DNA from: Candidatus Moanibacter sp.
GTDB taxonomy: Bacteria; Verrucomicrobiota; Verrucomicrobiia; Opitutales; UBA2987
Direction of reading: 5' to 3'
Assembly: GCA_965215885.1 (NCBI GenBank)
Contig: CBDCEW010000102.1
Span: 96,001-160,000, forward strand
DNA: 64,000 bases
Below the pieces are notes generated by a model that saw only the letters and a program-made list of their open reading frames with translations, made no database searches and had not been told where the DNA came from. Made by a program: the position numbers and the translations under genes. Positions 19,514 to 21,254 of this stretch are shown in pieces. Numbering within the stretch: the stretch's first letter is position 1; each line of letters opens with the position of its first letter.

Positions 19514-19564
19514 CAGCCTGTCGGACTCTTTTCATCAGGCTGCTAGGAATCTTATAGTAGCTCC

Positions 19565-19856
19565 AGGTTATTCATCCAAGGGGCCGAGTGGAGCCGCAGG
19601 AAAAACTCGGCGAGGCCCCTTTGTGAATAACTTGGCCGATCAGTGGTTGGCGATGGGTCAAAGAGTTTGTTTGGCTAAGGGTGAAAATATTCAAAGGCAG
19701 CCGTCCACTACGAACTTAGGAATCAGTCCGAAGAGGACTTCCGACAGAATTTCGAGTGGACGGCCTGCCTGGATGACCGAAAACGAACACTCAGTTTACA
19801 TCCTCATAACAGGATCCAACTATAAGGACTTCGCCTGGACATCCAGTGCCTTTGAA
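19565..19856 (+). ncRNA. Predicted IS110 bridge RNA
   Basis: Target loop guides TAGGAATC (19717-19724) and TCCGACAG (19740-19747); donor loop guides CTCAGTTTAC (19790-19799) and ACTATAAG (19819-19826); closing stems GCCGTCCACT/AGTGGACGGC, CTGGATG/CATCCAG, TCAAAGGC/GCCTTTGA; ends approximate. Confidence 0.88.
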
Positions 19857-19889
19857 AAAAGCAAAAAGACAAACTAAAGGAACAAAGGG

Positions 19890-21200
19890 ATGCAGAAAAG
19901 GGAAAAAACAAATCGATATAGTGTGGTGATAGGAATTGATTGGGCGGATCAGAAAAACGATCTGTGGATCATAGAGAGCGAAACGGGAAAAGGGACCCAT
20001 CGACAGGTGGCGCAGGATGCGGTCAGCTTGCACGAATTTGCCGTAGAGATGAGAGAAAAGTATGCCAGCGTGGGCAAGCGCATGGCCATGGTGGTGGACC
20101 AGAAGCGAGGAGGGTTGATCAACTTTCTGATGGGCTTGGAGTTTGTCGATATCTATCCAGTGCATGCGGCCAGGGCGAAGGATTATCGCCGGGCGCTGTA
20201 TCCATCAGGGGCCAAGAGCGACCCGGTCGATGCGCAAATACACGCGGAGTTTTTCCTCAAACATCCCGAGCTTTTTACCAAATGTTTCATACCTGACACG
20301 GCCCAAACACGGGAGCTGAACCTGTTGTGCGAGGACCGCCGTGGATTCGTCGATCAGGCTACCAGCCTCGAACAGCAGTTGGGCAGTTGTCTGAAGCAAT
20401 ATAACCCTTTGGTCTTGAAATTGTTCGATGATCTAGGCAGTGGCCTGTGCCTGCACTTTATATTGCGTTGGCCGACCCTCAAGAAGCTGCACAGAGCATC
20501 GGAGGGTGTCTTGCGAAAGTTCTTCTATAAGCACAACTGTCGCAGTGACGCCAAAATCCAGGAGCGTCTCGAATTGATCGGTAACGCACGAGCCTTGACC
20601 GAAGATGCAGCCATCATTGAAGCATCCAGCAGAAAAGCACAGACGTTGGCCGGACAGCTTTTGACCCTGTGCCCGCAGATCAAAGCGTATGAGAAGCGTA
20701 TCAGGGAGCTATTCAGAAGCCATCCCGATGCAGCCGTGTTCAGTGGCATTCCCGGAGCCGGCGAGGTCATGAGTCCCCGGTTGCTGTGCGCGTTCGGGAC
20801 CGATCGTTCGCACTTCGAAACGGCCCAGAACATGACCCAGTGGAATGGATCCGCTCCGGTCACGATCAACAGCGGGCAGGACAAAAGAACCGGACAACCG
20901 AAACGAATGGTCAACTGGCGGTGGGCGGCTCCTACCTTCGTGCGGCAAAGTTTCGTTGAATTTGCCGAACATTCGATCCGAAACTGTGCCTGGGCAAAGG
21001 CCTTTTACCAGATCAAAAAAGAACAGGGCAAACCCCGCCAAACCATTCTTCGTGCCCTCGCTCTCAAGTGGACCCGCATTCTGTTTCGCTGTTGGCAAAA
21101 TAGCGAACGCTACGATGAGCAAAAGTATCTCCAATCGCTCCAACGCACCGGTTCACCGGTGTGGAAAAGACTTCAGCAAGCAAATGCCAACGCCTTGTAA
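19890..21200 (+). CDS. IS110-family recombinase (RuvC-like DEDD domain plus Tnp20 domain)
   Basis: IGIDWAD, KSDPVDA, IPGAG, APVTINSG (catalytic Ser), RALALKWTRILF. Confidence 0.96.
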   Translation: MQKREKTNRYSVVIGIDWADQKNDLWIIESETGKGTHRQVAQDAVSLHEFAVEMREKYASVGKRMAMVVDQKRGGLINFLMGLEFVDIYPVHAARAKDYRRALYPSGAKSDPVDAQIHAEFFLKHPELFTKCFIPDTAQTRELNLLCEDRRGFVDQATSLEQQLGSCLKQYNPLVLKLFDDLGSGLCLHFILRWPTLKKLHRASEGVLRKFFYKHNCRSDAKIQERLELIGNARALTEDAAIIEASSRKAQTLAGQLLTLCPQIKAYEKRIRELFRSHPDAAVFSGIPGAGEVMSPRLLCAFGTDRSHFETAQNMTQWNGSAPVTINSGQDKRTGQPKRMVNWRWAAPTFVRQSFVEFAEHSIRNCAWAKAFYQIKKEQGKPRQTILRALALKWTRILFRCWQNSERYDEQKYLQSLQRTGSPVWKRLQQANANAL

Positions 21201-21231
21201 ACACAACATGAGAAAAAACTCAAAAAATCCC

Positions 21232-21237
21232 TTGACG
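21232..21237 (+). promoter_or_regulatory. -35 half of the IS110 circle-junction promoter
   Basis: TTGACG lies 17 bp from TATAGT (19553-19558) only after the element ends are joined. Confidence 0.85.
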
Positions 21238-21254
21238 GACTACCTCAGTTTTCT

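What the first reader, a model, noticed from the sequence alone, without database searches (positions are those of the whole stretch)
19553..21254. Near-consensus promoter formed only at the IS110 circle junction
Seen: TTGACG at 21232-21237 plus GACTACCTCAGTTTTCT (17 bp, including the core) joined to TATAGT at 19553-19558 gives -35/N17/-10 pointing into the predicted bridge RNA. Known: IS110 excision circles reconstitute junction promoters. This independently supports the element boundaries. In the integrated state the -35 faces outward.
Basis: partly seen in the sequence, partly recalled or inferred. Interest (0 to 1): 0.75.

Follow-up and report, generated by a model that had tools for sequence, protein, structure and literature searches.

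The report
Junction promoter of an IS110 element
A mobile DNA element carries half of a promoter at each end, so a strong promoter for its guide RNA and transposase forms only when it excises as a circle; this trick is already known for the family, and this is a new, well-supported example.

Summary

The boundaries are confirmed independently. Ten copies, 99.9-100% identical, share the ends 19553 and 21254. Nine sit in AGGAATCT|GTCGG sites, and a paralogous empty site exists.

Joining the right end (RE) to the left end (LE) gives one 10/12 sigma-70 match. About 0.001 is expected by chance.

The same TTGACG-N17-TATAGT is kept in an orthologue with 79% protein identity, although 4-fold sites are only 59% identical. 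It also appears in four relatives at 39-42% identity whose ends I placed from bridge-RNA guide matches.

The LE encodes a bridge RNA whose guides match target and donor. Its 5' stem starts at 19564, about where a transcript from this promoter would begin.

Flanks of integrated copies give only poor partner hexamers. This copy has a weak 9/12 hybrid.

No circle junction, start site or promoter activity was seen.

Junction promoters are established for IS621 and ISPpu10. This is a new member of a known kind.

The parts
19543..19552 (+). Left target arm (CTAGGAATCT) ending in the CT core (19551-19552). It belongs to the flanking REP-like repeat, not to the IS.
   Evidence: 9 of 10 copies share AGGAATCT here. 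The LTG at 19716-19724 repeats it.
19553..19558 (+). TATAGT: the first 6 nt of the left end. It is the -10 half of the junction promoter and also the right donor arm read by the RDG.
   Evidence: Identical in all 10 copies, in 16 of 18 G007 loci, and in L063, L071, L073 and L074.
19564..19634 (+). 5' stem-loop of the predicted bridge RNA. The predicted transcription start is at 19564-19566, 6-8 nt after the -10.
   Evidence: Fold. The outer stem pairs covary in the 7-sequence alignment (columns 13-16 with 91-94). The start site is inferred, not observed.
19700..19764 (+). Target-binding stem-loop. LTG at 19716-19724 (TTAGGAATC). RTG at 19740-19748 (TCCGACAGA, the reverse complement of TCTGTCGGA).
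   Evidence: One LTG position changes together with the target in G007, A to G. LTGs match the left flanks in L063, L071, L073 and L074.
19769..19846 (+). Donor-binding stem-loop. LDG at 19790-19799 (CTCAGTTTAC). RDG at 19819-19826 (ACTATAAG, the reverse complement of CTTATAGT).
19890..21200 (+). IS110-family transposase (bridge recombinase) gene, 436 aa.
   Evidence: PF01548 scores 64.5 bits and PF02371 scores 38 bits. NF033542 scores 119 bits, below its cut-off of 140. There is a weak match to the IS621 and ISCro4 transposases.
21222..21231 (+). A-tract plus TCCC just upstream of the -35, possibly UP-element-like.
   Evidence: Invariant between G000 and G007, while the 22 nt before it diverge. 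Similar A-rich stretches occur in distant relatives. The UP-element reading is recalled knowledge and was not tested.
21232..21237 (+). TTGACG: the -35 half of the junction promoter, in the right end, facing outward while the element is integrated.
   Evidence: Conserved in G007. TTGACG, TTGCTA, TTGACC or TTGCCG sits at the same distance from CTCAG in 9 of 12 related elements.
21238..21254 (+). 17-nt spacer. [quoted passage not shown]
21255..21350 (+). Right target arm (GTCGGT) and the rest of the REP-like repeat that hosts the insertion.
   Evidence: 33 of the 47 matches are to this repeat alone. There is an empty paralogous copy on C98.

Best explanation
Window 19553-21254 is an active IS110-group insertion sequence. 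It has no inverted repeats and a CT core, and it targets the motif AGGAATCT|GTCGGA inside an abundant REP-like repeat.

The right end carries an outward-facing -35 (TTGACG, preceded by an A-tract). The left end begins with a -10 (TATAGT).

When the element excises as a circle, RE and LE join across one copy of the CT core. This gives TTGACG-17 nt-TATAGT. Transcription should then start near 19565, at the foot of the 5' stem-loop of the LE-encoded bridge RNA, and could read on into the transposase gene.

Expression of guide RNA and recombinase is therefore boosted specifically in the excised intermediate, which favours re-insertion. In integrated copies expression depends on weak flank hybrids or on read-through.

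Shown here: the motifs, the ends, the core, the target, the guide matches and the conservation. Inferred: circle formation, promoter activity, the start site and read-through into the transposase gene.
For: **Motifs and geometry.**
- Confirmed. The chance expectation is about 1.3e-3 from the genome-wide rate.

**Ends.**
- 10 copies at 99.88-100% identity.
- 9 of 10 copies lie in AGGAATCT|GTCGG, and the same CT is present on both sides.
- An empty paralogous site exists on C98, and the genome holds 276 target motifs.

**Bridge RNA.**
- The LE folds with z = -6.29.
- A four-guide search recovers the true ends in G000 and G007.
- The 7-sequence alignment gives 28 predicted pairs, 20 of them with compensatory changes. 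The 5' stem begins at LE nt 12.

**Conservation in G007.**
- G007 is in the same family but another genus. Its transposase is 79% identical in protein and 80% in nucleotides, and only 59% at 143 four-fold sites.
- It keeps 32 of the last 33 RE nt. Only 0.7% of 33-nt CDS windows are that similar.
- TTGACG is present in 18 of 18 loci and TATAGT in 16 of 18. The other 2 loci are 5'-truncated.

**Distant relatives.**
- Four relatives (39-42% protein identity) recognise different targets. With ends placed by guide matches, they give TTGACG or TTGCTA, N17, TATAGT.
- The left donor arm varies and covaries with the LDG (TTT, ATG, ATG, AAG, AAG), while TATAGT stays fixed.

**Integrated state.**
- In 25 integrated copies the flank partner hexamers are poor: -35 scores 1-4 of 6 and -10 scores 1-3 of 6.

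**Host promoters.**
- The host appears to use TTGAC-type promoters. 10 of 45 tRNA upstream regions reach 9/12, against 6.2% of 3000 random windows. None reaches 10/12.

**Literature (passages read).**
- Junction promoters are shown for IS621 (PMC11208160; PMC13626964) and for ISPpu10 (PMC12288879).
Against: No circle junction was found. It occurs 0 times in the 105-contig assembly, and no back-joint appears in the contigs of 4 of 4 runs laid. Contigs drop rare forms, so this result is uninformative.

No transcription start or promoter activity was measured.

The -10 hexamer is also the right donor arm paired by the RDG, and the -35 block could be a recombinase contact. Conservation alone therefore cannot separate promoter function from recombination function.

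One resolved relative (L068) has a good -35 (TTGACC) but a poor -10 (3 of 6 or less). Five relatives could not be resolved (L061, L064, L065, L066, L067).

A junction promoter is not universal in the family. ISPpu9 has none (PMC12288879).

The guide-match score alone does not exceed shuffled controls (nulls reach 28-31 of 36). The distant boundaries therefore also lean on homology of the CTCAG and TATAG motifs.

An RNA-library contig (X18, 19545-19845) includes 8 nt of left flank. It reflects the integrated form or contaminating DNA, not a junction-derived transcript.
Confidence: 0.8

Rival explanations
1. The terminal motifs are conserved only for recombination, and their resemblance to a promoter is incidental. 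TATAGT would be the right donor arm read by the RDG. The TTGACG block would be a subterminal recombinase or synapsis contact.
For: The RDG at 19819-19826 is the exact complement of CTTATAGT. The RE module TTGNCG-6 nt-CTCAG keeps a fixed distance to the crossover in 9 of 12 relatives, as a protein-binding site would. ISPpu9 shows that a family member can do without a junction promoter.
Against: The guide-paired left donor arm varies freely and covaries with the LDG, whereas TATAGT does not vary. This points to a constraint beyond pairing.

Both hexamers match the sigma-70 consensus at 5 of 6, with the optimal 17-nt spacing and an upstream A-tract. The chance expectation is about 1e-3.

The predicted start coincides with the foot of the conserved 5' stem.

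The homologous arrangement is an active promoter in IS621 and ISPpu10.
Confidence: 0.1
2. The bridge RNA and transposase are expressed mainly from integrated copies, by read-through from upstream genes or by flank-LE hybrid promoters. The junction promoter, if it forms, would contribute little.
For: In this copy the upstream metallophosphoesterase ORF (18536-19513) has the same orientation as the IS. A 9/12 hybrid, TTTTCA-N18-TATAGT, exists.

For IS621, read-through transcription suffices for excision (PMC13626964).

An RNA-library contig crosses the flank-LE border.
Against: The hybrid is specific to this copy. The other 24 copies examined have -35 matches of 1-4 of 6.

Read-through explains basal expression but not the conservation of an outward-facing -35 in the RE.

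The same IS621 study concludes that the junction promoter boosts expression after excision. The two modes are complementary rather than exclusive.
Confidence: 0.07
3. The match is a chance juxtaposition of two hexamers with no function.
For: Only 12 bases are involved, and no expression data exist.
Against: The expectation is about 1.3e-3. The match is conserved across 59%-identical neutral sites in G007 and in 4 distant relatives.
Confidence: 0.03

Closest known systems
IS621 (E. coli), the archetype of IS110 bridge-RNA elements, and its RE-LE junction promoter
   Same: The -35 lies in the RE and the -10 next to the CT core in the LE. The promoter reads into an LE-encoded bridge RNA made of a 5' stem-loop, a target-binding loop and a donor-binding loop. 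The core is CT. It targets REP-type repeats. (PMC11208160 and PMC13626964, passages read.)
   Different: The transposase here is 436 aa against 328 aa. It matches IS621 only weakly and only over its C-terminal part (E = 1.7e-4, residues 251-410). It falls below the NCBIfam IS110 cut-off (119 against 140 bits). The LE is longer (337 nt), with about 65 extra nt between the 5' stem-loop and the target loop. Nothing here was tested experimentally.
ISPpu10 (Pseudomonas putida KT2440) Pjunc
   Same: An IS110-family element inserted in a repeated intergenic sequence. [quoted passage not shown]
   Different: In ISPpu10 the circle and the promoter activity were shown by PCR and lacZ fusion. Here both are predicted. 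I did not measure sequence relatedness to ISPpu10.
ISPpu9 (P. putida KT2440)
   Same: An IS110-family element that targets REP sequences and forms minicircles.
   Different: The ISPpu9 junctions form no hybrid promoter, and the element relies on its own Ptnp. The element here has no promoter-like site of at least 9/12 inside the IS in 19000-22000, and it does have the split promoter.
Pjunc of IS3, IS21 and IS30 family circles and of ISEc11 (IS1111 group)
   Same: The general principle is the same: joining the ends of a circular intermediate assembles a -35 from one end and a -10 from the other. (Statement in the introduction of PMC12288879. ISEc11 was seen only as a reference-list entry.)
   Different: Those families use other transposases (DDE), or, in the IS1111 group, carry the non-coding RNA downstream of the transposase gene. 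I did not read those papers.

Membership tests
IS110 family (IS110 group) bridge-RNA insertion sequence | N-terminal DEDD (RuvC-like) domain and C-terminal Tnp domain | tested here: met
   PF01548 scores 64.5 bits (cut-off 29) over residues 14-173, covering the full profile. PF02371 scores 38 bits (cut-off 21.3) over residues 283-374.
IS110 family (IS110 group) bridge-RNA insertion sequence | Reaches NCBI's curated equivalog cut-off for the IS110 RNA-guided transposase (NF033542) | tested here: not met
   119.2 bits against a cut-off of 140. This is a divergent, longer protein, so membership rests on the Pfam domains and the element's anatomy.
IS110 family (IS110 group) bridge-RNA insertion sequence | No terminal inverted repeats. 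A short core (here CT) is present once in the empty site and on both sides of the inserted element. | tested here: met
   Flanks of 10 copies. An empty paralogous site reads ...AGGAATCTGTCGG....
IS110 family (IS110 group) bridge-RNA insertion sequence | A long non-coding LE upstream of the transposase gene encodes an RNA with two internal loops. Their guides match the target (LTG, RTG) and the donor (LDG, RDG). | tested here: met
   Fold z = -6.29. Guide matches are 8, 7, 7 and 8 of 9. Guides match the differing flanks in 5 relatives. 20 of 28 pairs have compensatory changes. No Rfam family matched.
IS110 family (IS110 group) bridge-RNA insertion sequence | Catalytic residues (DEDD and the Tnp-domain serine) | tested here: inconclusive
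   The conserved SG of the query (NSGQ, about residue 328) aligns with the SG of the ISCro4 transposase. Assigning it as the catalytic serine is recalled knowledge and was not tested.
Junction promoter (Pjunc) of circular IS intermediates | A -35 in one end and a -10 in the other, 16-18 nt apart once the ends are joined, reading into the element's genes | tested here: met
   TTGACG-17-TATAGT scores 10/12 and is the only match of at least 8/12 across the joint on that strand.
Junction promoter (Pjunc) of circular IS intermediates | No equivalent promoter in the integrated state | tested here: met
   In 25 copies the flank -35 scores 1-4 of 6 and the flank -10 scores 1-3 of 6. This copy has a weak 9/12 hybrid, which is within the shuffle expectation.
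Junction promoter (Pjunc) of circular IS intermediates | A circular or tandem intermediate with the predicted joint exists | tested here: inconclusive
   0 occurrences in the assembly. No back-joint in the contigs of 4 runs. Contigs cannot show rare molecules.
Junction promoter (Pjunc) of circular IS intermediates | Measured promoter activity and a transcription start downstream of the -10 | not testable with these tools
   Only assembled contigs of RNA libraries were available. They cannot show starts.

The most novel reading that the evidence does not exclude
In this divergent clade of IS110 elements (436-aa-class transposases), the -10 hexamer and the right donor arm are the same six bases.

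TATAGT is frozen in 6 of 7 resolved elements, which recognise five clearly different targets plus one 1-nt variant. The left donor arm, which is only promoter spacer, drifts and covaries with its guide.

Promoter function would thus limit natural reprogramming of the donor. The RE module (A-tract, TTGNCG, 6 nt, CTCAG) would be a composite promoter and recombination signal.

In the same genome, one fixed copy (C84) sits in a site that matches the donor's left arm rather than the target. That would be a natural example of donor-arm ('half-match') guided off-target insertion.
Probability: 0.4. Interest if true: 0.4.

Novelty: new member of a known kind. Interest (0 to 1): 0.25.

Why it matters
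This is a clean, boundary-verified example of the IS110 junction promoter in a lineage far from IS621. It comes with a bridge RNA whose four guides can be read directly against the target and the donor.

It extends the generality of 'expression is switched on by excision' to a divergent, longer recombinase. It offers a ready set of natural orthologues (G000, G007, L063, L071, L073, L074) with different targets for anyone mining bridge recombinases.

It does not open a new question. The mechanism is published.

Tried and rejected
**Rfam.** An E-value search of 18500-22500 gave no family.

**Protein-seeded locus searches.**
- Genome contigs gave nothing.
- Metagenome contigs gave one relative at 42% identity.
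- An alignment-seeded scan of genome contigs gave four relatives at 27-44%.
- No relatives of intermediate divergence were found.
- Genome searches of family, class and order found only G007 above 44% identity. These covered 9, 401 and 401 genomes, each count including G000.

**Circle junction.**
- It is absent from the assembly.
- No contig joins about 21254 back to about 19553 in runs X17, X18, X1 and X2.
- One X1 contig skips 19531 to 21316, with 22 nt on the shorter side. That is a repeat-to-repeat join, not precise excision.

**RNA-library contigs.**
- They cover the LE: X18 spans 19545-19845 and X17 spans 19606-19839.
- Contig word depths are higher over the LE than over the 5' part of the CDS.
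- Both runs come from one study, DNA carry-over cannot be excluded, and contigs show neither starts nor levels. I therefore draw no conclusion on expression.

**Guide-match search alone.** It does not exceed shuffled controls (nulls 28-31 of 36), so I combined it with motif homology. L061, L064, L065, L066 and L067 stayed unresolved.

**Other checks.**
- Pfam on the two ORFs flanking the odd C84 copy gave no family.
- The search of earlier findings returned nothing.
- An antisense 8/12 match at the LE start is not above chance and was dropped.
- I did not search G007 for the joint.

Full report
**1. The observation**

I joined the last 60 nt of the right end (RE) to the first 60 nt of the left end (LE) inside a script. 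The joint gives one promoter-like match of at least 8/12 on the forward strand. It scores 5/6 + 5/6 with a 17-nt spacer and spans the joint.

In the whole genome (GC 53%), matches of at least 10/12 with spacers of 16-18 occur 565 times in 12,723,680 positions. About 29 start positions span the joint, so about 1.3e-3 such matches are expected there by chance.

**2. What the element is**

- **Transposase.** The ORF 19890-21200 (436 aa) carries PF01548 (DEDD_Tnp_IS110) and PF02371 (Transposase_20), both above their cut-offs.
  - It is divergent. NF033542 scores 119 bits against a cut-off of 140.
  - The solved IS621 and ISCro4 transposases match only at E about 1e-4, over the C-terminal part.
- **Copies.** The genome (window = G000:C102:96001-160000) holds 10 full copies. 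Each is 1702 nt, and they are 99.88-100% identical. There is also a 491-nt partial copy at a contig end and a 193-nt fragment.
- **Ends.** All full copies start with TATAGTAG and end with CAGTTTTCT.
- **Target.** Nine of 10 copies lie between AGGAATCT and GTCGG (7 with GTCGGA, 2 with GTCGGT).
- **Core.** CT is the only sequence shared by both sides in all 10 copies, so CT is the core. There are no inverted repeats.
- **Empty site.** A paralogous site on C98 reads straight through AGGAATCTGTCGG.
- **Host repeat.** The target lies in a REP-like repeat. 33 of the 47 matches are to the roughly 92-nt right-flank repeat alone. GGAATCTGTCGG occurs 276 times in the genome.

**3. The RNA the promoter would drive**

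The LE (19553-19889) folds far better than shuffles, with z = -6.29 and 0 of 100 shuffles as good. It forms three structures:

- a 5' stem-loop at 19564-19634;
- a stem-loop at 19700-19764, whose internal loop carries TTAGGAATC (the same sense as the left target arm) and TCCGACAGA (the complement of the core plus the right target arm);
- a stem-loop at 19769-19846, which carries CTCAGTTTAC (the same sense as the RE end) and ACTATAAG (the complement of CT+TATAGT).

A search that demands all four guide matches in the right order recovers the true ends in G000 and in G007. Rfam has no matching family.

In an alignment of seven LEs, 20 of 28 predicted pairs show compensatory changes. The outer pairs of the 5' stem begin at LE nt 12, which is window 19564. 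That is 6 nt after the -10, where a sigma-70 transcript would start.

**4. Conservation**

*G007 (same family, another genus)*

- G007 has about 25 copies of an orthologue at 79-80% protein identity.
- Of the 18 loci inspected, all 18 keep the RE with TTGACG, and 16 keep the LE start TATAGT next to CTAGGAGTCT. The other 2 are 5'-truncated.
- The CDS is 80% identical in nucleotides, and only 59% at 143 four-fold sites.
- The last 33 nt of the RE are 32/33 identical. Only 0.7% of 33-nt CDS windows reach that level.
- The 22 nt between the stop codon and the A-tract have diverged.
- The G007 target differs by one base (GGAGTCT), and the LTG carries the matching A-to-G change.

*Distant relatives*

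- No relatives of intermediate divergence were found.
- Among 10 relatives with enough flank (36-42% identity), guide matching alone is not better than shuffled controls.
- The RE module (CTTGNC.GA, then CTCAG, then 4 nt, then the core) and the LE start are visibly homologous.
- I placed the RE end by that homology and the LE start by RDG complementarity plus an identical core. With those boundaries, L063, L071, L073 and L074 give TTGCTA or TTGACG, 17 nt, TATAGT. Their LTGs match four different left flanks.
- L068 has TTGACC but a poor -10. L061, L064, L065, L066 and L067 were not resolved.
- Across the resolved set, the guide-paired left donor arm varies and covaries with the LDG, while TATAGT does not vary. 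This suggests a constraint on it beyond base pairing.

**5. The integrated state**

The RE -35 faces outward. Over 25 copies (10 in G000, 15 in G007), the right flank offers a -10 of only 1-3 of 6, and the left flank offers a -35 of only 1-4 of 6.

The tool scan of 19000-22000 finds a single site of at least 9/12. It is the flank-LE hybrid TTTTCA-18-TATAGT of this copy, and it is within the shuffle expectation of 2.0. It finds none inside the IS. 'Only at the junction' therefore holds for a strong promoter, with a weak hybrid specific to this copy.

The upstream metallophosphoesterase ORF is co-oriented with the IS, so read-through is possible, as reported for IS621.

The host seems to use TTGAC-type promoters. 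10 of 45 tRNA upstream regions reach 9/12, against 6.2% of 3000 random windows, and none reaches 10/12.

**6. What is not shown**

The joint is absent from the assembly. None of the contigs from the two RNA-library runs and the two other runs joins 21254 back to 19553. Contigs drop rare molecules and cannot show starts, so neither the circle nor the transcript start is tested.

**7. Comparison with the literature**

[quoted passage not shown] A 2026 study shows weak read-through expression from linear copies and a boost from the junction promoter after excision (PMC13626964, passages).
- **ISPpu10 and ISPpu9.** ISPpu10 has a strong hybrid promoter with the -35 from the right end and the -10 from the left. 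ISPpu9 has none (PMC12288879, passages).

The mechanism is therefore known. This is a new and divergent member with good in-silico support.

**8. Side observation**

The tenth copy (C84:54652-56353) lies between ...CCTCAGTTTACT and TATGGGGAG....

- The left flank matches the donor's left arm at 10 of 11 positions. It matches the LDG over its first 10 nt perfectly.
- The site does not resemble the normal target.
- The same RE-flank junction recurs at C84:1-491 inside an inverted duplication of about 11.5 kb, so this is one insertion event.
- It resembles the donor-arm ('half-match', LD-only or LD+RD) off-target insertions described for IS621 (bioRxiv 10.64898/2026.08.31.748434, abstract and section 8).

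**Verdict**

This is a new member of a known kind, of modest interest.

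Noticed in passing
G000:C84:54652-56353 (locus L035 1444-3145, minus strand); also C84:1-491: One of the 10 IS copies is not in the AGGAATCT|GTCGGA target. It sits between CCTCAGTTTACT and TATGGGGAG. That site resembles the element's own donor: the left arm matches at 10 of 11 positions, and its first 10 nt match the LDG perfectly. This looks like a natural donor-arm ('half-match') guided off-target insertion. A 110-aa ORF in the left flank runs into the IS. Neither flanking ORF has a Pfam family.
   Followed up: partly
G000:C84:1-15348 versus 43679-55142: About 11.5 kb of inverted duplication at 99.6-99.8% identity, in three blocks with indels. Each arm ends in a copy of the IS with the same right flank. 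This is either a real inverted duplication bounded by the IS or an assembly effect.
   Followed up: partly
window 19480-19552 and 21255-21350; genome-wide: The IS sits in an abundant REP-like repeat. GGAATCTGTCGG occurs 276 times in the genome. In 48 cases a forward motif is followed within 50-120 nt by the inverted motif, which gives units of about 90-100 bp with inverted ends. About 10 of these sites are occupied by the IS.
   Followed up: partly
window 19635-19699: About 65 nt lie between the 5' stem-loop and the target-binding stem-loop of the predicted bridge RNA. They are partly conserved in G007 (GAGTTTGTTT, TTCAAAGGC) but are missing or different in the distant relatives. Their role is unknown.
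   Followed up: no
G007 loci L040 and L051: Two G007 copies lack the first 86 nt or so of the LE, including the -10 and the start of the 5' stem. They share the same left flank, so this is a duplicated 5'-truncated copy.
   Followed up: no
L071 (metagenome contig, 1881 bp): The 12 nt before the LE and the 12 nt after the RE are identical (CGAACTCGTCCT). This is either a tandemly repeated target or a wrap-around of the short contig.
   Followed up: no
window 19550-19578, minus strand: A weak antisense promoter-like match (TTGGAT-17-TATAAG, 8/12) reads outward from the LE start. It is not above chance. ISPpu9 and ISPpu10 are reported to make antisense sRNAs.
   Followed up: no
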